Below, piece by piece: positions 9,763-20,470 of a stretch of 64,000 bases of DNA. Source of the stretch: a virus; the IMG/VR virus record IMGVR_UViG_3300025418_000011. The stretch is one strand, 5' to 3'. The translations under genes were made by a program, and so were the position numbers. The notes under the pieces were generated by a model that saw nothing but the letters and a program-made list of their open reading frames with translations, searched no databases and had not been told where the DNA came from. Within the stretch, counting starts at the first letter, position 1; each line of letters opens with the position of its first letter.

Positions 9763-11171
9763 ATAACGATATTTACAATGATGCGGATTTTATTGAACTG
9801 GTAATAAAAAATATTATCAGAGAGCCAAAGGTTTTTGCCCTGGCTAAAAACCTAAAAATCGTGCCTGAAGACTTTGGCGGAATAGATATATACAAGGCAT
9901 TTATACAAATCGCTCTGGAGATCAATGAAGCACCTATAAACGAAAAGTTGATGCTTATTAATCTGAAGAGCTATCTGAACAAAGGGGCACTAAGTAAAGG
10001 CCAAGAGGAACAGATAGGAGAATTCTACGGATGGATCTATGATGACAGTCCGCTGAATTCAGACTACATCATGGAACATCTGCCTAAGATGTTGAAGCAG
10101 CGTAGATTTGGGGCGATTCTTAGAACCGCAGAAAAAGATCCAGATAAGATTGCAGCTAGCTTGAACTCATTGGTGTTCGACTTTAAGGACGCAGCTATCA
10201 ACGAAGAGGAATTATCTTTCACGCCTTTCGACCGCCCTGTGTTCGGTAAAAAGAGAAAAACTTTCCCTACCGGGTTTAGAGAGATTGACGCGATAATCAA
10301 GGGACTGGGTGTTCAAGAGTTTGGAATGATCCTGGGTTACTCTGGTGGAGGCAAAACGGCAATGGCTGTACATTCTGCATTAGAGACATGTAAGCTAGGG
10401 CATAGGGTAATGTATCTGTCTATGGAAGAACCTGCAGAGCATATCATTGCTCGGTTCTATTCTAACTATTTTTGCGTGAGCTATTCTGACCTTCACCAGG
10501 GAAAAGCAGTAGCTGAGGCCGAGGTAATAAGTAAATGGAATGATATGACCGACGAGGAGCGTGAGGTTATGCGTAATTTGAAAGTTGAAAACTTAAAAGG
10601 CATAGCCATGACCGCCAAAGATATCGGAGCTTATCTGGACAGGTATGCAGAAAGAACAGGATTTATTCCGGAGGTTGTTTATATAGACCAGATGGATTAC
10701 ATGGAGCCCGCTGAAAGTACAGACGCATCTTGGGAGAAATACTCAAAGATAGCTTTCGAGGTAGAAGATTTATCAAACCACTTGATTAATGGGGAACATA
10801 AGTTTTCTGTATGGCTGCTTCACCAGGCCACTGGAAAGATGAAAGGCCACTTTACAAACGCAGAGATATCTGGATTCAAGGGAGTGATCAAGCCTGCAGA
10901 TATTGTGGTAGGTATAGGAAAGGACGGACCCGATGCCAAGATAGTTAATATTTTCTCTATCAAGGCCAGACACACAAAGAACTTCTTTGTTCCTCACAGA
11001 GCAAATATGGAATTTATGCGTTTTGATACATCCGATGTTGGTGGAGAAGCCAGAGAGCAAACAGAAATAGATTTAGTACCAAAGCTAACAGGTAAAAAAA
11101 ATAAATCTAGGTTTAATAACATACCTGACAAGCAACAACTATTGCCGTCAGCAGATGGTAAATTTTTATAA
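9759..11171 (+). CDS. DnaB-like replicative helicase
   Basis: GYSGGGKT Walker A, YLSMEE, VYIDQMDY, LLHQ, KARH motifs. Confidence 0.9.
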   Translation: MNNDIYNDADFIELVIKNIIREPKVFALAKNLKIVPEDFGGIDIYKAFIQIALEINEAPINEKLMLINLKSYLNKGALSKGQEEQIGEFYGWIYDDSPLNSDYIMEHLPKMLKQRRFGAILRTAEKDPDKIAASLNSLVFDFKDAAINEEELSFTPFDRPVFGKKRKTFPTGFREIDAIIKGLGVQEFGMILGYSGGGKTAMAVHSALETCKLGHRVMYLSMEEPAEHIIARFYSNYFCVSYSDLHQGKAVAEAEVISKWNDMTDEEREVMRNLKVENLKGIAMTAKDIGAYLDRYAERTGFIPEVVYIDQMDYMEPAESTDASWEKYSKIAFEVEDLSNHLINGEHKFSVWLLHQATGKMKGHFTNAEISGFKGVIKPADIVVGIGKDGPDAKIVNIFSIKARHTKNFFVPHRANMEFMRFDTSDVGGEAREQTEIDLVPKLTGKKNKSRFNNIPDKQQLLPSADGKFL

Positions 11172-11172
11172 A

Positions 11173-11379
11173 ATGACTACACAAAAAGATCACACATTCA
11201 TTATCAAATCACCTCCTACATATAATCCGGCAATAATATCAGTAGAGATACATCCAGAGGCTTCTCTTATAGAAGTGATGGACGCTTTTGAGAAATTCTT
11301 GATATCTGTGGGTTATATTTTACCAGAAGGAACAAAACTGGGATTTGAGTATGACCCACCACAAGCTAACCATATATAA
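11173..11379 (+). CDS. hypothetical protein
   Basis: Small ORF; FEKFLISVGYI pattern seen in small phage proteins. Confidence 0.55.
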   Translation: MTTQKDHTFIIKSPPTYNPAIISVEIHPEASLIEVMDAFEKFLISVGYILPEGTKLGFEYDPPQANHI

Positions 11380-11381
11380 TA

Positions 11382-14075
11382 GTGAACGAAAATAAAGTAG
11401 AAGTAAAACCAAGAGGAGGCCCTGGAGCAAAATACATGATTGTATTTTCTCACCCATCAAAAGACGATTTACAGGTCGGTTACTTCGGTAGGGCGGGAGG
11501 TTCAGCTAACGAAGTAATAGATGCCATAGAAATAGCGGAAATACCTATAGAAGAATGCTACTTCACGGCTATGGTGAGAAACGGAATAGGTAGCAAACCC
11601 AAACCCCCGGCAGAAGACATTGAGTTTTGGAGTGAAAAGTTAGACAAGGAAATAGAAGAGATAAAGCCAAAGATTATCATTAGCCTGGGTGCGGAGGTAT
11701 TCAAGAGAATGATGAAGACCAACATGAAGATGGGAGACTATGTTGGTGAGATCATAGATTCTCCTTATGGTAAGCTACTTGCAAATTATTCCGCAGGTAT
11801 GGTTACTGTGCAGGATCCTACAAAAAGACCTGAATTCCAGGATATCTTCATGCTGGCTAAGAAGGCTGTGGATAACAACCTCCAATATGATAAATACACA
11901 TATAAGATAGTTAATTCTCCTGAGGAGAACATAACTATTCTTAATGATTATATATCCAGGGGAATGTTCTCTATAGGTTATGACGCTGAGTGGTACGGAA
12001 GTAAATTCACGGATGATGAGGTGATGTATGAGTTTCAGTACTCGTGTGAGAAAGATGTTGCTGTGGTTCTTAACATAGCCCCTGACGGCGAACACGAGAA
12101 TCTTGAGCTACTGAACACCATGAAGCTCATTCTAGAGCATCCTAAAGCGGATAGATTGGGCTGGAACATCAGGGCTGACGATTTACGACTAACACATAGA
12201 GGTTTCAAACTAGCAGACGAGACAATGGGCTTTGACGGAATGAAGGCTGTGGCTTTCTATGATTCCAGATTATCCAAGGGGTTGGATACCGGCATTAAGA
12301 AGTTTACAAACTACACTCCTTACTATGTGCCATTCTACAGGAAAATGCGTGAGCATAAGTTACCCAAGAATGCGCTGGCCAAGATGAAGTTTTTCGAGCC
12401 TGAAGTGTACTATGACTATTGCGCTGGTGACGCTGTTTCTCACAGAGAGGCATGCCTGAACATGCGGGGTAATTTCCCTAAGCACTTATGGCGTTACTAC
12501 AGCGAGGTTTATCTTCCTCTCACAAACTACTTCCTGGATATGGAAAGCACAGGCATTCCCATAGACATGAAAGTTTTAAGAGAGATTACGGATAAATATG
12601 TTGAAAAGTATGAGAGCCTCAGAACCGAGATGGATGAATTCATGGAGAAAAACTTTGGTATAAAAGGATTTAATCCAAACTCTTCTCTACAGAAGAAGGA
12701 TTTCATGTTTAACATACTAAAGCTTACTCCGGCATATTATACAAAGGCAGGCAAATCACCCAAGCCCAGAGTATGGTATGAGAAGCAGTCACCTCAGACT
12801 CAAAGATTATTCTCTCCATCAACTAATGGTAAATCCTTGTCCACTATCAAGTTCGAGCTTGAGGAGGATATGGAAGAGAATGACTCAGAAGAACTGAAAC
12901 TGAAGCACAGGGCAGTAGAGCTATTGTTGAATATTTCTAGGATAGGTGTATTCGCTACAAAGTTCTTATCCAAGAAAGGCGTTACGTTAGACGAAGCTGA
13001 GCAGTTGGATGGAGAAGAAGCTGATGAAGACGAACCACTTAAACAGAGTTATTGGGCAGCTATTGCTGGTGATGGAAAAATCCATGCTAGCTTCTTCGAG
13101 CTACTAAAAAACTTCAGATCTTCTAGCTCACCTAATGTGCAGAATCCTGCTTCAAAGGTGTTGGCGCACATTCCAAATATCTTCGTACCAGGATATTCAT
13201 TAATGCCCACAGAAGAGCAGAAGAAACATAGCGATAAATTACCGGCGAATATAAGAAACATATTTTATTCAGGTGATCCAGATTATCATTGGGTAGAGCT
13301 AGACATTGCTGGTGCAGACTTGGCGATTATGGCTTTCCTCAGTGGAGATCCTAAATTCATAAGCGACATCAGGGCAGGTAATTTCCATCAAACAAAAATG
13401 AGGGAATACTTCCAAGATCCTGAACTATCAAAGAAAGATGTTTCTAAATACGTTATATCCAAGAGTATTACATTCCGGGTTTCATACACAGCAGGATTGG
13501 ATTATGCGGCTATACCTATTCAAGCTGAAATCTATGCAGAAAACGGATTGAGGGTTCCGCTAGAACTGATCCAATATGCTTTGGATACCTGGAAGAGATA
13601 TGACACATACATGGCTTATAGAGAAGCCTGTAATGCAGAGGTTAATGCACATGAAAGAATATCTAACGCAAGAGGCATGCAGTTATCCTATGAAAAAACA
13701 GATAACTTTGGTATAAAAGCAGGATGGTTGAATGAGAGTTTGGCTTTTCCTGTGGCTTCTGAGTTAGCTTTGTTTATGTGGGAAGCCTCTGTGAATGTGC
13801 GTAAAATATTGAAAGACGAAGGTTTATGGATGAAATATATTTATCCAGTAAACGTAGTTCATGATGCTAATTACTGGGTAGCTCACAAGGATCTCATGAA
13901 TGGTAACTACCTGCCAGAGATTCTTAGATATGTTTTCTGTGATTATACAAAAATTGCCACAGGAGATAATCTTGGTTGCGAGCTAGTGGTTAGCGACAGA
14001 TGGAAAGGTAAGAAAATATTCGAAAAAGAAACTGTTTGGAATAAATCCAAGCAAACCTGGGAATGGGCTAACTAA
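11382..14075 (+). CDS. family A DNA polymerase with N-terminal UDG-like domain and 3'-5' exonuclease
   Basis: Exo I YDAEW, Exo II GWNIRAD, Exo III YCAGD; RSSSSPNVQNP; motif A ELDIAGADL; motif B KSITFRVSY; motif C VHD; N-terminal PKIIISLG. Confidence 0.9.
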   Translation: MNENKVEVKPRGGPGAKYMIVFSHPSKDDLQVGYFGRAGGSANEVIDAIEIAEIPIEECYFTAMVRNGIGSKPKPPAEDIEFWSEKLDKEIEEIKPKIIISLGAEVFKRMMKTNMKMGDYVGEIIDSPYGKLLANYSAGMVTVQDPTKRPEFQDIFMLAKKAVDNNLQYDKYTYKIVNSPEENITILNDYISRGMFSIGYDAEWYGSKFTDDEVMYEFQYSCEKDVAVVLNIAPDGEHENLELLNTMKLILEHPKADRLGWNIRADDLRLTHRGFKLADETMGFDGMKAVAFYDSRLSKGLDTGIKKFTNYTPYYVPFYRKMREHKLPKNALAKMKFFEPEVYYDYCAGDAVSHREACLNMRGNFPKHLWRYYSEVYLPLTNYFLDMESTGIPIDMKVLREITDKYVEKYESLRTEMDEFMEKNFGIKGFNPNSSLQKKDFMFNILKLTPAYYTKAGKSPKPRVWYEKQSPQTQRLFSPSTNGKSLSTIKFELEEDMEENDSEELKLKHRAVELLLNISRIGVFATKFLSKKGVTLDEAEQLDGEEADEDEPLKQSYWAAIAGDGKIHASFFELLKNFRSSSSPNVQNPASKVLAHIPNIFVPGYSLMPTEEQKKHSDKLPANIRNIFYSGDPDYHWVELDIAGADLAIMAFLSGDPKFISDIRAGNFHQTKMREYFQDPELSKKDVSKYVISKSITFRVSYTAGLDYAAIPIQAEIYAENGLRVPLELIQYALDTWKRYDTYMAYREACNAEVNAHERISNARGMQLSYEKTDNFGIKAGWLNESLAFPVASELALFMWEASVNVRKILKDEGLWMKYIYPVNVVHDANYWVAHKDLMNGNYLPEILRYVFCDYTKIATGDNLGCELVVSDRWKGKKIFEKETVWNKSKQTWEWAN

Positions 14076-16123: not shown

Positions 16124-16390
16124 ATGAACAAGAAATTCGTCGTCAAGATCTCCGACAACACGGGCCACACCGAGCTCGCAGACCAGACCATCGACCAGGC
16201 GGTTGATGCCATCACCTCCAAGGTTGCCTCTCATGCCCACTGGGTATGGGTTGATGGTCAGCTGTTTGAGTTCGACGGTAATGATGTTACCTCGGACAAG
16301 AACCGCGAGAAGCTCGCTACTCGCCTGGCTGCAGCAGAAGACACCAACATCGTACTCTCTGGTACTCTGGTTGGTGGCGCCTCTCTGTAA
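16124..16390 (+). CDS. ubiquitin-like (beta-grasp/ThiS-like) protein candidate with C-terminal GG-ASL
   Basis: 88 aa; N-terminal strands, helix, WVWVDG strand, terminal IVLSGTLVGG+ASL; JAB and ThiF genes 3-4 kb downstream. Confidence 0.75.
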   Translation: MNKKFVVKISDNTGHTELADQTIDQAVDAITSKVASHAHWVWVDGQLFEFDGNDVTSDKNREKLATRLAAAEDTNIVLSGTLVGGASL

Positions 16391-16404
16391 TTAGTCTGTT
16401 ATAT

Positions 16405-16436
16405 TGTGGGGAAGAGGTCCGATCCCTCTCCCCACA
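16405..16436 (+). terminator. strong stem-loop after the Ubl gene
   Basis: TGTGGGGAAGAGG / CCTCTCCCCACA inverted repeat; no U-tract. Confidence 0.55.
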
Positions 16437-16463
16437 CATCAAAAATAAACACACATACACAAA

Positions 16464-18536
16464 ATGGAAATATCACTTAAAAAATTTAATTCATTAGTAA
16501 ATAACTTTAATAAAATAAAAAAATTCGCTTCCGGTGGTAGTGTGAGGTTCGATCATGACTGGCAGAAGATGAACCATGGTATTCAGTATCCTTATGACCC
16601 CGCAGTGCGACTGAAGATTAGTGATCTGAAATTTAAAACACTCCAAGCTGCATGGAGTTACTCAAAGATGAGCAAGATCCCTGTGCAGGGTCTTGACATA
16701 GCTCCATTGTCAAAATCAAGAACAACTCCAGGAAGCGCTGGTGAGAGATTCTATTCAGACACCAGAGCAGATAAGGTAGACACCAAGGGAATTGTTAAGA
16801 AGCTCACAAAAACAAACGGCCAGGAACTGGCTAAAGCGTTTAAGAGCATGCGTTTCATCCCGAAGGAAGTACCTGATAGTCTGTATCTTCCTTTTATTTT
16901 TCAAAATGCTCCATTAGAAGTAATGGAGGGTGTGCATACCTATAGGCTGGTATACACCAATACACCACATTCGTCCTCTGTTTTGATTATTGGTAGAGAT
17001 GACGACGATATCTATGACTATCTCGACAAGGGATTTTTCATGATGGTGGTTAAAGAAGTCTCTAGTAATGGAAATGAAAAGCGGCATTTGGTAATCACGA
17101 ACCAACTGGATGTACATACCATGCATGTATTCCTACTGGTTACTATGGATGCAAAGCTTACCTCATTCCTCAAGGGAGGTTGCTTTATACACTCCAACGA
17201 GGCTCAAATGGTTAGGCTGAAGATGGAGAAACGTCTATCAGCAAGGCATAAGGTAAAGTATGATGAGCTCAGGGCCTATATAGAGAAAGACTATCAAAAC
17301 AATACCTCTTTGATTGTTATCAATAAGCTCATGACGGGAGAGATTGAGAAGACCAGTATCAACAATATCACTCTCACAAAAACTTCCGCCACATATGAGA
17401 ATCTAAGTCTGGAAGCTCCTGATTTACTTGATGTTATATACAACAAGATTAACTTCGGTGGAGAGTTCGATATATATTCTATAATAGAGGCATACTCAGA
17501 GAATACAAAAGAACAGGTGGATGAGAAAGAGGTGGCAGAGGGTACATACGAGTTCCCAGAGATAAAGATCAATGGATTCGCCGTGAATATCTGCAAGACC
17601 CACACAGGTGTAAGAAAGATTAATGGTAAGAGGATAAATGCAGCAGAGGTAGGCAAGGTACTATACAGGGCGAGCTGTCATCACAGTCTTGCCGAGTATA
17701 ATCTGTTTGTTGCCCGTATTAGCAAGATGAGCATCAGATGGCATGATGCTATCGCTAATGGTCTGCCTGTTAAAATGCACAGCGTTATTACCAGAGAGGA
17801 GTATAACTCCGAAGAGCCCAGCTCCACAGCCCCGGCAGTTAAATTCTGGATTGATCCAGCTGCCCGCTGTATCAAGATCAGGGTAGAAGGAGATGACGGA
17901 GGCAAGGTAAGCCTCGGAAGACTCATCACCAAGATAGACACGATCAACAAGAAAACCAATGACCGTTGGTCTAACAAGGCAGGTAAATCCCGTAGCTGGC
18001 GCTGGGCTCGTGAAGAGCTTGCAAAAGCTATCAAAGATTGCTGTACACATACCACAGTAACCAAGAACGAGGACGGTACTACCAATACAATAACCACAAC
18101 TTCTGTAACAGGAGAAGACATCAAGAAGATTATCGATGTTGCGGACGAAGCCAAGAAAAAGGCCATAGAACGCAGTAAAGAGTTCTTGAACAGTGCGGTT
18201 AAAGTCACAGGAGCAGAGCAGATTGAGTTCCTGGGTAAGAAAGCGTTCAAGGTTCAGGGCAGTCTGAGAACATATGCAATCGTTGTGGAAAATGCCAAGG
18301 TTTATGACTTCGATACAAAGCAGTATCGTTGCATTGTGAACGACGGGCATTTCCGTGGTGTTGGCTATGATGATATCGCAGCCAGACTGTATGTTCTTAA
18401 GAATGACTCTGTTATGCAGAAAAAGATCGGAACACTGCAAGGAGGAGCACAGCCTCAATATGAGAATGTGCATAACGACTACCAACCAGAAAGAGATGTA
18501 ACAGAAGAAATTATTGAGAAACTAGACTTGGCTTAA
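16464..18536 (+). CDS. large hypothetical protein in the Ubl locus
   Basis: 690-aa ORF; no family recognised; C-terminal beta-rich segment YRCIV followed by a helix. Confidence 0.85.
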   Translation: MEISLKKFNSLVNNFNKIKKFASGGSVRFDHDWQKMNHGIQYPYDPAVRLKISDLKFKTLQAAWSYSKMSKIPVQGLDIAPLSKSRTTPGSAGERFYSDTRADKVDTKGIVKKLTKTNGQELAKAFKSMRFIPKEVPDSLYLPFIFQNAPLEVMEGVHTYRLVYTNTPHSSSVLIIGRDDDDIYDYLDKGFFMMVVKEVSSNGNEKRHLVITNQLDVHTMHVFLLVTMDAKLTSFLKGGCFIHSNEAQMVRLKMEKRLSARHKVKYDELRAYIEKDYQNNTSLIVINKLMTGEIEKTSINNITLTKTSATYENLSLEAPDLLDVIYNKINFGGEFDIYSIIEAYSENTKEQVDEKEVAEGTYEFPEIKINGFAVNICKTHTGVRKINGKRINAAEVGKVLYRASCHHSLAEYNLFVARISKMSIRWHDAIANGLPVKMHSVITREEYNSEEPSSTAPAVKFWIDPAARCIKIRVEGDDGGKVSLGRLITKIDTINKKTNDRWSNKAGKSRSWRWAREELAKAIKDCCTHTTVTKNEDGTTNTITTTSVTGEDIKKIIDVADEAKKKAIERSKEFLNSAVKVTGAEQIEFLGKKAFKVQGSLRTYAIVVENAKVYDFDTKQYRCIVNDGHFRGVGYDDIAARLYVLKNDSVMQKKIGTLQGGAQPQYENVHNDYQPERDVTEEIIEKLDLA

Positions 18537-18549
18537 AAATCAAACTCCA

Positions 18550-18726
18550 ATGAAACGCGTTCCAAAAAATAAAAAAGTAAAGGCGCAAATAAAGATTGGT
18601 AATACCCATAGCAGGGAATTGATGGTTAGTAAGCTACTCAGTGTATTCAATAGAATCACAAATAATAGAATGTATGCGGAGTGTAAGAAAACAAACTTCG
18701 CGGATATAGACTATTACGGAAGATAA
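18550..18726 (+). CDS. small basic hypothetical protein
   Basis: 58-aa ORF MKRVPKNKK...YYGR read manually. Confidence 0.4.
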   Translation: MKRVPKNKKVKAQIKIGNTHSRELMVSKLLSVFNRITNNRMYAECKKTNFADIDYYGR

Positions 18727-18736
18727 AAGTAACCCA

Positions 18737-18761
18737 GGGGTGGGTGGTTATCACCCACCCC
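18737..18761 (+). terminator. stem-loop
   Basis: GGGGTGGGTG-GTTAT-CACCCACCCC perfect 10-bp stem. Confidence 0.55.
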
Positions 18762-18775
18762 GCAACTTTAATAAT

Positions 18776-19435
18776 ATGATCAAGAAATACGTAATCGATA
18801 TAGAGACAGAACCACTTGAAAAAGAAGAGCTTGCTCCGTTTGTTCCGGAGTTCAAGGCAGATAGCCGACTAAAGGATCCTGTTAAAATCGCAGAAGATCT
18901 TAAGTCCAAGGAAGTTAACTTCTACGAGAAGTCCACCTTGTCTGCACTAACATCTAAAGTATGTGCATTAGGCATCTGGGAAATTGGTAAAGAAGAGCCT
19001 GAACTGTATTGCGCTATGGCAGAAGAAAAGCTGATTAATATTTTCAGCGATCTTCTCACATTCAGCACAGACGCTAATGGTGCTTCTGGAAGAGCCTACG
19101 AGATAATCACATTTAACGGAAACAATTTTGATATTCCGTTTCTTTGCCGCAGAGGTCTGAAGTATGGTAATAACATGTTCACCAAGTTCTTCAGAACAGA
19201 TGGTGGCATTGGTTATGATTCCGGCCTTGTGGATCTAGCGGTTATGTGGGATTGTCGGCGCAAGGATTACACCAGCCTGAAAGAGTTGGCGTTACACCTT
19301 GGTGTGGGCGACAAACCAAAAGATGACAAGCTATTCTATCAGAAGTACTCAGAAAACCCAGAGGCCGCAAAAGATTATCTAAAGAATGATCTGATCCTCA
19401 CCAAGAAGATTGCGGAAAAGTGGGGCCTGGTATAA
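18776..19435 (+). CDS. DEDD 3'-5' exonuclease (PolB proofreading-like, stand-alone)
   Basis: VIDIETE, TFNGNNFDIPFL, YLKNDL motifs. Confidence 0.85.
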   Translation: MIKKYVIDIETEPLEKEELAPFVPEFKADSRLKDPVKIAEDLKSKEVNFYEKSTLSALTSKVCALGIWEIGKEEPELYCAMAEEKLINIFSDLLTFSTDANGASGRAYEIITFNGNNFDIPFLCRRGLKYGNNMFTKFFRTDGGIGYDSGLVDLAVMWDCRRKDYTSLKELALHLGVGDKPKDDKLFYQKYSENPEAAKDYLKNDLILTKKIAEKWGLV

Positions 19436-19881
19436 TGGGCATTATAAAAGAAATAAATAAAAAGTTATCCAGAGTTATTACGGGGGCAGCGATAAGCTGC
19501 CCCCTAGATAACGAGGAAGAGGGGGGAATAATACTCACCAAGAACGAAATTGATTTTGTTTTTGTTAAAGTAAAAAATCTCCATGCCGGTGAAGAAGTAG
19601 CCTATGGTCTTTATGTCACAGATCCTAAAGACTTTGGCGAGAAAGTTATATCTATGATAGGTAAGGGTTGGAATATGTATGCAAGCTTTCATACACATCC
19701 TCAATTCGCACCTACTCCTAGTCAGCTTGATTACGATAAATTATTCCAAGGATTCAAATATAATTACATATATTCTAAAAAACACAGAGCCTTTTCATTC
19801 TCTGAATGGTCACCACAAAAAGACCTTCATACATTTGTAATGGGTCTGGAAACACTACTACACATAACAAACAATGAATAA
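19435..19881 (+). CDS. JAB/MPN+ (JAMM) metalloprotease
   Basis: EEEGG plus HTH-PQFAPTP-S-QL-D, matching the ExnHxHx7Sx2D motif exactly. Confidence 0.9.
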   Translation: MGIIKEINKKLSRVITGAAISCPLDNEEEGGIILTKNEIDFVFVKVKNLHAGEEVAYGLYVTDPKDFGEKVISMIGKGWNMYASFHTHPQFAPTPSQLDYDKLFQGFKYNYIYSKKHRAFSFSEWSPQKDLHTFVMGLETLLHITNNE

Positions 19882-20470
19882 AATAAAGAAAATCGGAATT
19901 GCAGGTGCTGGCGGTATTGGTTCTAACTTATTGGCTATACTATTCGACTATGGATTTAATCGTAAGCAGTTCGATTACTCCAGTGTGGATGTTGATATCT
20001 ATGACGACGACACTGTGGATACCAGCAATCTTCTTCACCAAAACTACAAGATTGATGACGTTGGTCGCCCTAAAGTAAAAGTGCTAGAGGACAAATATGT
20101 GGTGAACGGCATTAATAAGTTCATGGATGAAAAGGACTTCAAGAAATATGATGTAATCTTCAGCTGCGTGGACAGTATGCAGTTCCGTAAAACCCTGTAT
20201 ACCTGGGGGTTTGAAAACAAGGACAAGGCTTTCTGGATAGATGGTCGTTGCACCAGCCGTCAAGGTGCTTTGTTTAATTCCAAGCTTCCAGAGGACGAGC
20301 TGAAGAAGTATATCAATGACGAGGAGATCCGGGGAGGTTGCTTGCTAAAGCACGAGAAAGAGTCAAACATCAGTCATACTCTTCCTACTGTTGTGGCAGG
20401 CATGATGGTTCAAACGTTCCTTAATTTCATAAGAGGAGAACGAACAGACAAGAAGCTGTTCATGATCTGA
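19874..20470 (+). CDS. ThiF/MoeB/E1-like adenylyltransferase
   Basis: GAGGIGS, DDDTVDTSNLLHQ, GRPKV, CVDS, WIDGR; candidate catalytic Cys in GGCL. Confidence 0.9.
   Translation: MNKIKKIGIAGAGGIGSNLLAILFDYGFNRKQFDYSSVDVDIYDDDTVDTSNLLHQNYKIDDVGRPKVKVLEDKYVVNGINKFMDEKDFKKYDVIFSCVDSMQFRKTLYTWGFENKDKAFWIDGRCTSRQGALFNSKLPEDELKKYINDEEIRGGCLLKHEKESNISHTLPTVVAGMMVQTFLNFIRGERTDKKLFMI

What the first reader, a model, noticed from the sequence alone, without database searches (positions are those of the whole stretch)
16124..20470. Phage-encoded ubiquitin-like conjugation system (Ubl + JAB + E1 + large unknown)
Seen: one co-oriented locus between the DNA polymerase and the SSB/RecA genes encodes an 88-aa protein ending LVGG-ASL, a 690-aa unknown, a protease with a perfect JAMM motif, and an overlapping ThiF/E1-like enzyme. 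Known: Ubl/E1/JAB sets are the core of bacterial Bil/Bub-type and CBASS Cap2/Cap3 conjugation, which are host anti-phage systems, and of ThiS/CysO-type sulfur relays. Inference: this phage carries its own protein-tagging machinery inside its replication module. It could modify host or phage proteins, or counter host Ubl-based defences. No sulfur-acceptor enzyme (ThiG, MoaE, cysteine synthase, TtuA) is recognisable in the window, which favours protein conjugation over sulfur transfer.
Basis: partly seen in the sequence, partly recalled or inferred. Interest (0 to 1): 0.92.

Follow-up and report, generated by a model that had tools for sequence, protein, structure and literature searches.

The report
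Phage-encoded ubiquitin-like tagging cassette
An uncultured large phage carries, among its DNA-replication genes, its own ubiquitin-style kit (a small Gly-Gly tag, an activating enzyme, a trimming protease and a big new cysteine protein that probably passes the tag on); I found such machinery described only in cells, mostly as anti-phage defence, and its target here is unknown.

Summary
All four genes lie at the stated coordinates. Pfam places the protease in Prok-JAB and the E1 in ThiF, both above cut-off.

The 88-aa protein models as a beta-grasp (pLDDT 83). Its Gly-Gly is invariant in all relatives, followed by 0-5 variable residues, and some relatives carry a tandem di-Ubl in which each repeat ends in GG.

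The four genes travel together in all 61 IMG/VR viral contigs whose flanks reach far enough. These span two deep clades with different gene order. The only genome-collection copies are on MAG contigs that look like phage genomes.

Five near-complete relatives encode no rhodanese, cysteine desulfurase, ThiG, MoaE, TtuA/MnmA or CysM-type partner.

Best reading (about 0.65): a phage-owned Ubl conjugation cascade, most like Bil (BilABCD) in parts and order but not a sequence member of it. The target and all chemistry are inferred.

This scan noted the same cassette before on related phage DNA. I found no paper describing it.

The parts
16124..16390 (+). Ubl: an 88-aa ubiquitin-like modifier precursor ending LVGG followed by a 3-residue tail (ASL)
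16405..16436 (+). GC-rich hairpin directly after the Ubl stop codon, before the 690-aa gene
   Evidence: The region folds at -21.8 kcal/mol, z -2.4. An 11-18-bp hairpin with a different sequence stands at the same place in nearly all related loci. Many of those are followed by a U-run and so look like terminators. The copy in this window has no U-run.
16464..18536 (+). 690-aa protein: about 550 aa of unknown fold plus a C-terminal Cys domain; candidate E2 (or E2/E3 hybrid)
   Evidence: The AF2 model has pLDDT 87. 95 homologous clusters were found, none with a Pfam domain. There was no whole-chain match in PDB by sequence or Foldseek. It is always linked to Ubl, JAB and E1. R161, D188, N387, G433 and C623 are invariant, and C405 nearly so, across both clades.
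18141..18458 (+). C-terminal UBC/UEV/RWD-like domain (residues about 560-665) with invariant Cys623 (codon 18330-18332)
   Evidence: About 20 of 50 VIA-align rows for residues 560-665 are E2, UEV or RWD chains (VPS37A 4.3, Vps23 UEV 4.2, E2S 4.1, Ubc9 3.8, a Bub complex chain 3.3). The second look adds BRE UEV, kinetochore RWDs and a chain of a bacterial E1-E2-Ubl complex at 2.5. Secondary structure is helix, four-strand meander, Cys loop, helix. The Cys is present in 140 of 140 representatives within the motif Y-x-C-I-V ... D ... R..AL.ND. Pfam DUF7737 matches below threshold in 48 of 51 members.
18550..19435 (+). Interposed, non-core genes: a 58-aa ORF and a 231-aa RNase H-like 3'-5' exonuclease
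   Evidence: RNase_H_2 matches at E 9.6e-7, with a weaker PolB-exo hit. The exonuclease is absent in many related loci, where the large gene abuts JAB.
19420..19881 (+). JAB/JAMM metallopeptidase (153 aa; alternative start at 19435)
   Evidence: Prok-JAB scores 30 bits against a cut-off of 25. E32/E33, H91, H93, P94, S101 and D104 are invariant. HxHP..PS..D is kept in the distant clade.
19874..20470 (+). Minimal E1 (ThiF-type adenylation domain, 198 aa), start overlapping the JAB stop
   Evidence: ThiF scores 68.6 bits. The nearest NCBIfam models are PRTRC_ThiF and ThiF, both far below cut-off. The best solved relative by profile is the UBA3 adenylation domain (E 1.3e-4), then ThiF-type proteins, MccB, ThiF and UBA2. 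GxGGIG, DxD, N..Q, K, VD..FR and Cys156 in the crossover-loop region are invariant in both clades.

Best explanation
This is a phage-encoded ubiquitin-like protein-conjugation cascade.

Shown:
- A beta-grasp Ubl made as a precursor (GG-ASL here; naked GG, other short tails, or tandem di-Ubl in relatives).
- An intact JAMM peptidase.
- A minimal ThiF-type E1 with all ATP/Mg motifs and one universally conserved loop cysteine (C156).
- A 690-aa protein whose C-terminal domain has a UBC/RWD-like layout with an invariant cysteine (C623).
- Inheritance of all four as one cassette in two deep clades of large uncultured phages.

Inferred mechanism:
1. JAB trims the tail (or cuts di-Ubl) to expose Gly85.
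2. The E1 adenylates the Gly carboxylate and probably takes it as a thioester on C156.
3. The Ubl passes to C623 of the large protein.
4. The large protein's N-terminal ~550 residues choose the target, and may add a second relay Cys (C405).
5. The Ubl ends on an amine of a host or phage protein.
6. JAB may also reverse the mark.

The position in the replication and nucleotide-metabolism module suggests action early or midway in infection. The hairpin after the Ubl gene suggests the tag is made in excess over the enzymes.
For: - Ubl fold and invariant GG with variable tails.
- Di-Ubl with GG after each repeat, which calls for an endopeptidase.
- JAB and ThiF above Pfam cut-offs, with intact motifs.
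- The E1 profile is nearest to the UBA3 adenylation domain.
- The UBC/UEV/RWD fold is enriched among matches to residues 560-665.
- Cys623 is invariant in 140 of 140 representatives of a family with 415 clusters.
- The four genes are linked in 26 + 35 viral loci despite gene-order change and 24-30% identity.
- No other recognisable E2 was found in five relatives.
- No sulfur-relay partners were found in those five genomes, while ThiF was found once in each.
- Bil Ubls likewise sometimes carry 2-9-aa overhangs after the terminal Gly (bioRxiv 10.1101/2023.09.04.556158, read).
Against: - No biochemistry exists and the phage is uncultured.
- No E2 HMM (UQ_con, Prok-E2_A or Prok-E2_B) matches, and there is no HPN motif.
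- The only sequence match of the domain is the sub-threshold DUF7737, a domain of unknown function found with DUF4132 in bacteria.
- The E1 is unusually small. It lacks the N-terminal arm and the zinc/C-terminal region of MoeB/ThiF, and it has His for the usual Arg in NLxRQ.
- No target is identifiable.
Confidence: 0.65

Rival explanations
1. E2-less system. The E1 alone activates the Ubl and transfers it (as in archaeal SAMP/UbaA or Urm1/Uba4). The 690-aa protein is then not a carrier but the dedicated substrate or a scaffold that gets tagged, for example a replication-associated factor whose activity the tag switches.
For: E2-independent Ubl systems exist (established knowledge of SAMP/UbaA and Urm1). 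The E2 fold call is weak. No E2 HMM matches. The large protein is strictly co-inherited with the Ubl and next to it in both gene orders. In CBASS the conjugated molecule is itself an operon-encoded protein (PMC10097602 abstract).
Against: A mere substrate would not need a cysteine invariant in 140 of 140 representatives inside a highly conserved motif, at the E2-like position after a four-strand meander. No invariant lysine appears among the invariant columns of the family.
Confidence: 0.15
2. Sulfur-carrier system. The Ubl is thiocarboxylated by the E1 (ThiS/MoaD/TtuB/CysO type) and delivers sulfur for a phage-specific thiolation of tRNA, DNA or a cofactor. The large Cys protein would be the sulfurtransferase, and JAB would only unmask the GG.
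For: The Ubl-GG + ThiF + JAB triad is also the core of CysO/Mec+ and TtuB-type pathways (Iyer et al. 2006, PMC1779556). NCBIfam's next-best hits are ThiF adenylyltransferases. The large protein has two conserved cysteines. The cassette sits among DNA-metabolism genes next to an unusual polymerase.
Against: Five near-complete relatives encode no rhodanese, cysteine desulfurase, ThiG, MoaE, TtuA/TilS-type or MnmA-type PP-loop enzyme, or PALP enzyme, while controls and ThiF were detected. The E1 has no rhodanese domain. The large protein has no PP-loop or other sulfurtransferase family match. The UBC/RWD-like fold and polyubiquitin-like di-Ubl fit conjugation better.
Confidence: 0.08
3. Counter-defence as the main role. 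The cassette exists to neutralise host Ubl-based immunity (Bil, Bub, type II CBASS). The JAB would strip host conjugates from phage proteins or CD-NTases, and the phage Ubl/E1/E2 would compete with or mis-tag the host machinery.
For: Host Bil tags a phage tail protein and CBASS needs Cap2 conjugation. The phage JAB's PADLOC matches are to CBASS-type JAB models (E 2e-5) and the E1's to Cap2 E1-E2 models (E 3e-4).
Against: A deconjugase alone would suffice, yet all four genes are kept in every locus over deep divergence. The cassette is embedded in core replication genes rather than in variable accessory islands. The PADLOC similarities are weak and generic. Hosts and their defences are unknown.
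Confidence: 0.1

Closest known systems
Bil systems (BilABCD, types I and II), bacterial ISG15-like anti-phage conjugation (bioRxiv 10.1101/2023.09.04.556158; PMC10557695; summary in PMC11601603)
   Same: Both have four separate components in the same order: Ubl, E2, JAB peptidase, E1. Both have a C-terminal Gly that is sometimes masked by a short overhang. Both include Ubls with one or more beta-grasp domains. Both have cysteine-bearing E1 and E2.
   Different: This cassette is encoded by phages, not by bacterial defence islands. No PADLOC, NCBIfam or Pfam model links its Ubl or E2-like protein to Bil families. The E2-like domain is the tail of a 650-790-aa protein rather than a small stand-alone E2. 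The E1 is only 198 aa.
Bub ('6E'/DUF6527) pathways (PMC11601596)
   Different: Bub works through oxyester intermediates without catalytic cysteines and has a DUF6527 serine protease. Here the cysteines are invariant and no DUF6527 protein is present.
Type II CBASS Cap2 (E2-E1 fusion) / Cap3 (JAB) (PMC10097602)
   Same: Both have an E1 adenylation domain plus an E2-type Cys domain plus a JAB. The best PADLOC matches of the phage JAB and E1 are to these models.
   Different: There is no CD-NTase or effector here. The conjugated molecule is a dedicated beta-grasp Ubl. E1 and the E2-like domain are on different proteins.
PRTRC (ParB-related, ThiF-related cassette) of plasmids and ICEs
   Same: PRTRC_ThiF is the top NCBIfam hit for the E1 (E 2.5e-13). 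From memory, not tested here, PRTRC is a Ubl/E2/JAB/E1 set of mobile elements placed among DNA-handling genes.
   Different: The score of 49.9 bits is far below the 144.75 cut-off. No PRTRC A-F or ParB model matches any neighbour. tblastn found no relative in 72,556 plasmids.
ThiS/MoaD/CysO/TtuB sulfur-carrier systems with ThiF/MoeB-type E1 (and JAB in CysO/Mec+)
   Same: Both have a beta-grasp protein with C-terminal GG, a ThiF-family adenylating enzyme, and JAB unmasking.
   Different: No sulfur donor or acceptor enzyme was found in five related genomes. An additional conserved Cys protein with a UBC/RWD-like domain is present. Polyubiquitin-like tandem Ubl forms occur.
Lambda/T1 tail-assembly Ubl (TAPI) with JAB-NlpC/P60 protein K (Iyer et al. 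2006, PMC1779556)
   Same: This was the only earlier phage-borne pairing of a beta-grasp protein and a JAB that I found in the literature searched.
   Different: That module lies in the tail genes, has no E1 and no E2, and is a processing step in assembly rather than a conjugation cascade.

Membership tests
ThiF/E1 adenylation superfamily (Pfam PF00899) | HMM score above the curated cut-off, with the Rossmann GxGxxG and the Mg/ATP Asp motifs | tested here: met
   The score is 68.6 bits against a cut-off of 28.1. GAGGIG, D44/D46, N52..Q56, K67 and D100 are invariant. The profile aligns these motifs to UBA3. Variation: His replaces the usual Arg in NLxRQ.
ThiF/E1 adenylation superfamily (Pfam PF00899) | Catalytic Cys that forms a Ubl thioester (needed for E1-type rather than MoeB-type action) | not testable with these tools
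   C156 lies between the last Rossmann strand and the closing helix and is the only Cys invariant in both clades. Its role is inferred.
JAB/JAMM metallopeptidases (Pfam PF14464 Prok-JAB) | HMM above cut-off and a complete E..HxHx7Sx2D zinc site | tested here: met
   The score is 30 bits against a cut-off of 25. E32/E33, H91, H93, S101 and D104 are invariant.
Ubiquitin-like beta-grasp modifiers | Beta-grasp fold | tested here: met
Ubiquitin-like beta-grasp modifiers | Conserved C-terminal Gly(-Gly) exposed directly or after processing | tested here: met
   GG is invariant in 18 + 20 sequences of two clades, with tails of 0-5 residues. Tandem repeats each end in GG.
E2/UBC superfold (UBC, UEV, RWD) | Helix, four-strand antiparallel meander, then helices | tested here: inconclusive
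E2/UBC superfold (UBC, UEV, RWD) | Conserved catalytic Cys in the loop after strand 4 | tested here: met
   C623 lies 8 residues after the fourth strand and 13 before the next helix. It is invariant in 140 of 140 representatives.
E2/UBC superfold (UBC, UEV, RWD) | Match to an E2 sequence model (UQ_con, Prok-E2_A, Prok-E2_B) or an HPN motif | tested here: not met
   No such Pfam hit appeared in 51 full-length or 21 domain-only members, even at E<=10. None was found in five related genomes (the controls for these families were weak). There is no HPN before C623.
Bil (BilABCD) systems | Operon of Ubl, E2, JAB and E1 | tested here: inconclusive
   Ubl, JAB and E1 are met, in the Bil order. The E2 is supported only at fold level.
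Bil (BilABCD) systems | Sequence membership of the components in Bil families, and location in bacterial genomes as a defence system | tested here: not met
   The only PADLOC matches are weak CBASS-type JAB and E1-E2 models. All copies lie on viral contigs or on 211-226-kb MAG contigs that look like phage genomes.
Type II CBASS (Cap2/Cap3) | E2-E1 fusion protein next to a CD-NTase and an effector | tested here: not met
   The E1 stands alone at 198 aa. The neighbours are gp88-family, exonuclease, RecA-like and unknown proteins.
PRTRC system | ThiF above the TIGR03736 cut-off together with ParB and PRTRC proteins A-F | tested here: not met
   The score is 49.9 bits against a cut-off of 144.75, and no other PRTRC model matched. 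There was no plasmid relative.
ThiS/MoaD/TtuB/CysO sulfur-carrier pathways | Sulfur donor and acceptor enzymes encoded with the Ubl/E1 (rhodanese, cysteine desulfurase, ThiG, MoaE, TtuA/MnmA, CysM) | tested here: not met
   0 of 5 related genomes (four of them >=94% complete) matched any of the 7 families. Controls were positive and ThiF was found in 5 of 5. Use of host enzymes cannot be excluded.

The most novel reading that the evidence does not exclude
The 650-790-aa protein is a single-chain E2/E3 hybrid with two relay cysteines (C623 in the UBC-like domain and C405 upstream). The cassette would then be a virus-owned three-cysteine ubiquitin-type cascade, which large phages use during replication to tag host or phage proteins. 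That would be an offensive use of a machinery so far known in prokaryotes as anti-phage defence.
Probability: 0.3. Interest if true: 0.9.

Novelty: new variant of a known kind. Interest (0 to 1): 0.8.

Why it matters
In the papers I read, prokaryotic ubiquitin-type conjugation (Bil, Bub, CBASS Cap2/Cap3) is described only as a cellular weapon against phages. A complete, deeply conserved cassette owned by the phages themselves would reverse that picture. Here it is placed in the replication module and found in at least two old lineages of ~50-210-kb contigs, with 415 protein clusters at 50% identity.

It would mean that viruses of bacteria, like viruses of eukaryotes, use protein tagging to run infection. 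It would also make the origin and exchange of Ubl systems between phages and hosts testable.

The finding further points to a possible new E2-type family (the C-terminal Cys domain, weakly similar to Pfam DUF7737) and to a very small E1. Both are useful for understanding the minimal requirements of the cascade.

Tried and rejected
Searches that found nothing:
- blastn and tblastn against 50,697 GenBank phages found nothing for the locus or the E1. PolA found one marginal hit, and RecA found only hits of <=30% identity.
- tblastn of the E1 against plasmids found nothing.
- Sequence searches of PDB with the 690-aa profile and with its C-terminal domain found nothing meaningful. Single-sequence searches with E1 and JAB also found nothing.
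- Whole-chain Foldseek of the 690-aa model against PDB gave no match.
- BFVD gave only three unnamed viral proteins.
- Both ESM Atlas calls were uninformative because the Atlas's own model of this protein is poor. They did show that DUF7737 travels with DUF4132 in bacteria.
- I tried E. coli YehI as an example of DUF4132 + DUF7737, but it has no DUF7737 hit. I therefore could not check whether the Cys is conserved in DUF7737.

A1 found nothing.

Other negatives:
- Rfam found no intron family in the interrupted ThiF of L021.
- An MccB-like peptide-nucleotide role was considered and dropped. The substrate is a folded beta-grasp ending in Gly, not Asn, and a JAB and a Cys carrier are conserved.

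Full report
WHAT IS THERE

The window is a piece of a large, uncultured tailed phage. Upstream of the finding lie SbcCD-like, helicase, primase-like, DnaB-like and family A polymerase genes. Further on are collagen-repeat tail-fibre genes. The locus has no DNA or protein relative among 50,697 GenBank phages. Its RecA-like gene reaches only about 29% identity to cultured phages.

- 16124-16390: 88 aa, ending LVGG-ASL.
- 16464-18536: 690 aa.
- 19420-19881: 153 aa.
- 19874-20470: 198 aa, overlapping the previous gene.

Between the 690-aa gene and the protease there are also a 58-aa ORF and a 231-aa RNase H/PolB-exo-like exonuclease.

THE RECOGNISABLE ENZYMES

The 153-aa protein is a Prok-JAB peptidase above the Pfam cut-off, with a complete E..HxHx7Sx2D site.

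The 198-aa protein is a ThiF-family adenylation domain, well above cut-off.
- Its best NCBIfam matches, PRTRC_ThiF and ThiF, are far below their cut-offs.
- A profile of it aligns best to the adenylation domain of the NEDD8 E1 subunit UBA3 (E 1.3e-4). ThiF-type proteins, MccB, ThiF and UBA2 follow.
- It is a minimal E1. It starts at the Rossmann strand, ends just after the closing helix, and has His in place of Arg in NLxRQ.
- Over two deep clades the invariant residues are the nucleotide and Mg motifs and a single cysteine, C156, in the segment where E1 and ThiF enzymes carry their reactive Cys.

THE SMALL PROTEIN IS A UBL

The sequence evidence is stronger.
- In 18 relatives the Gly-Gly is invariant and is followed by 0-5 unconserved residues.
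- In a distant clade the protein (under 30% identical) mostly stops exactly at ...LVGG.
- In four loci the gene encodes two tandem Ubl repeats, each ending in GG, like a polyubiquitin precursor.
- The same pattern of occasional short overhangs after the terminal Gly is reported for BilA (bioRxiv 10.1101/2023.09.04.556158).

A stable hairpin follows the Ubl gene here. A hairpin of different sequence, often with a U-run, stands at the same place in nearly all relatives. This fits a tag made in excess over its enzymes.

THE 690-AA PROTEIN

It has 95 homologous clusters at 90% identity, none with a Pfam domain, and no sequence relative in PDB. The full-length model is confident (pLDDT 87) but multi-domain (pTM 0.52). 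Foldseek finds nothing for the whole chain.

The secondary structure fits the fold: helix 562-582, four strands, a loop, then helix 636-646. C623 sits 8 residues after the fourth strand.

A profile of this domain finds 415 representative clusters at 50% identity (142 at E<=1e-10). Almost all are 600-790-aa proteins with the domain at the C-terminus. The cysteine is present in 140 of 140, inside a conserved Y-x-C-I-V...D...R..AL.ND motif.

The only Pfam similarity is DUF7737. It is sub-threshold but present in 48 of 51 members. In bacteria this domain accompanies DUF4132. A second cysteine, C405, is nearly invariant across both clades.

THE FOUR GENES ARE ONE CASSETTE

- Eleven IMG/VR loci found with the E1, and 26 found with the large protein, all show Ubl, large protein, (optional exonuclease), JAB and E1 between the polymerase/gp88 genes and a RecA-like gene.
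- Thirty-five further viral loci were found with distant homologues of the large protein (24-30% identity). Every one contains all four genes, now ordered large protein, Ubl, JAB, E1. They are flanked by class II ribonucleotide reductase, a sigma factor, a standard PolA or an AAA protein.
- The genes therefore stay together through gene-order change and replacement of the neighbourhood. This is the signature of a functional unit.
- In 185,579 species genomes the large protein of the window clade was not found.
- The E1 was found only on three MAG contigs. Two of these are 211-226 kb, carry the complete cassette, and look like mis-binned phage genomes.

SULFUR RELAY OR CONJUGATION?

Five related genomes of 165-204 kb were searched six-frame. 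Four are at least 94% complete and one has terminal repeats.
- ThiF was found once in each.
- None of the following was found, although all rang in the control genomes: TtuA/TilS-type or MnmA-type PP-loop enzymes, rhodanese, cysteine desulfurase, ThiG, MoaE, or PALP enzymes.
- No separate E2 (UQ_con, Prok-E2_A, Prok-E2_B) was found either. The controls for those families were weak.

Together with the polyubiquitin-like precursors and the UBC-like Cys domain, this favours conjugation over sulfur transfer. Host enzymes could still complete a sulfur pathway.

MECHANISM PROPOSED

Shown: the parts, their motifs and their linkage.

Inferred:
1. JAB exposes Gly85.
2. The E1 adenylates it and probably holds it on C156.
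3. The Ubl moves to C623 of the large protein.
4. The N-terminal 550 residues select the target or provide a further relay Cys.
5. The Ubl is attached to a host or phage protein during the replication phase.
6. JAB may also remove it.

I put about 0.65 on a conjugation cascade with the large protein as carrier, 0.15 on an E2-less system in which the large protein is the substrate or scaffold, about 0.08 on a sulfur carrier, and about 0.1 on counter-defence as the main biological role (not exclusive in chemistry).

COMPARISON WITH KNOWN SYSTEMS

In parts and order the cassette is most like Bil (Ubl, E2, JAB, E1; PMC11601603). It is not a member by sequence models, and it is phage-borne rather than a bacterial defence.

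It differs from the other known systems as follows:
- Bub: this cassette keeps cysteines, whereas Bub uses oxyesters (PMC11601596).
- CBASS Cap2/Cap3: this cassette has a dedicated Ubl and no CD-NTase.
- PRTRC: it fails the curated thresholds.
- The lambda tail Ubl/JAB pair: this cassette has an E1 and an E2-like protein (PMC1779556).

Eight successful full-text searches and the Bil, Bub and Iyer 2006 papers gave no description of a phage-encoded complete cassette (reading). That is the limit of what I could check.

Earlier notes of this scan describe the same cassette on related phage genomes with the same reading. I reached my conclusions before reading them, and they agree.

LIMITS

- There is no biochemistry, no host and no target.
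- The E2 fold call is weak.

Noticed in passing
L021:9301-10475 (same contig as L010): In one relative the E1 gene is split after ...DDDTV, just before the conserved NLLHQ motif, by a ~1.2-kb insert. The insert carries a 323-aa ORF with two LAGLIDADG-like motifs. It is probably a homing-endonuclease intron or a split gene. No Rfam intron family matched.
   Followed up: partly
L036:4808-5428, L037, L073:4752-5402, L075:4771-5367: The Ubl gene encodes two tandem beta-grasp repeats, each ending GDL(A/V)GG, joined by a 3-7-residue linker. This is a polyubiquitin-like precursor in a phage.
   Followed up: partly
window:18740-19435: A 231-aa RNase H-like/PolB-exo-like exonuclease is inserted between the large gene and JAB. 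It is present in about half of the related loci and absent in the rest. Distant-clade loci instead often carry unrelated 230-270-aa ORFs between Ubl and JAB.
   Followed up: partly
window:16405-16436 and the Ubl-downstream spacers of L012-L037: A strong GC-rich hairpin follows the Ubl gene in nearly every relative, with different sequences. Most have a U-run and look like terminators. The window's copy has none.
   Followed up: partly
window:11382-14075: The 897-aa family A polymerase has essentially no tblastn relative among GenBank phages (one marginal hit). It is 52-86% identical within this uncultured lineage.
   Followed up: no
window:14202-15011: A GP88-family protein (PF17338, E 5e-29), of unknown function, is conserved directly after the polymerase in all window-clade loci.
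   Followed up: no
window:35456-47296 (- strand): Three very large consecutive genes (1940, 1258 and 747 aa) carry collagen triple-helix repeats. The largest ends in a phage tail-tip domain. They are presumably tail fibres.
   Followed up: no
L073 (RXKB01000001.1, 226,528 bp) and L075 (CAYMQQ010000001.1, 211,238 bp): Contigs deposited as parts of Dependentiae and Sediminibacterium MAGs carry the full phage cassette and have phage-genome size. They are probably phage genomes binned into MAGs.
   Followed up: no
L038:4169-6130 and 11120-13204; L064:3437-5422: In the distant clade the cassette lies between a class II (B12-dependent) ribonucleotide reductase and a sigma-70-type factor plus a standard PolA, or an AAA ATPase. 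This is again a nucleotide and replication neighbourhood.
   Followed up: partly
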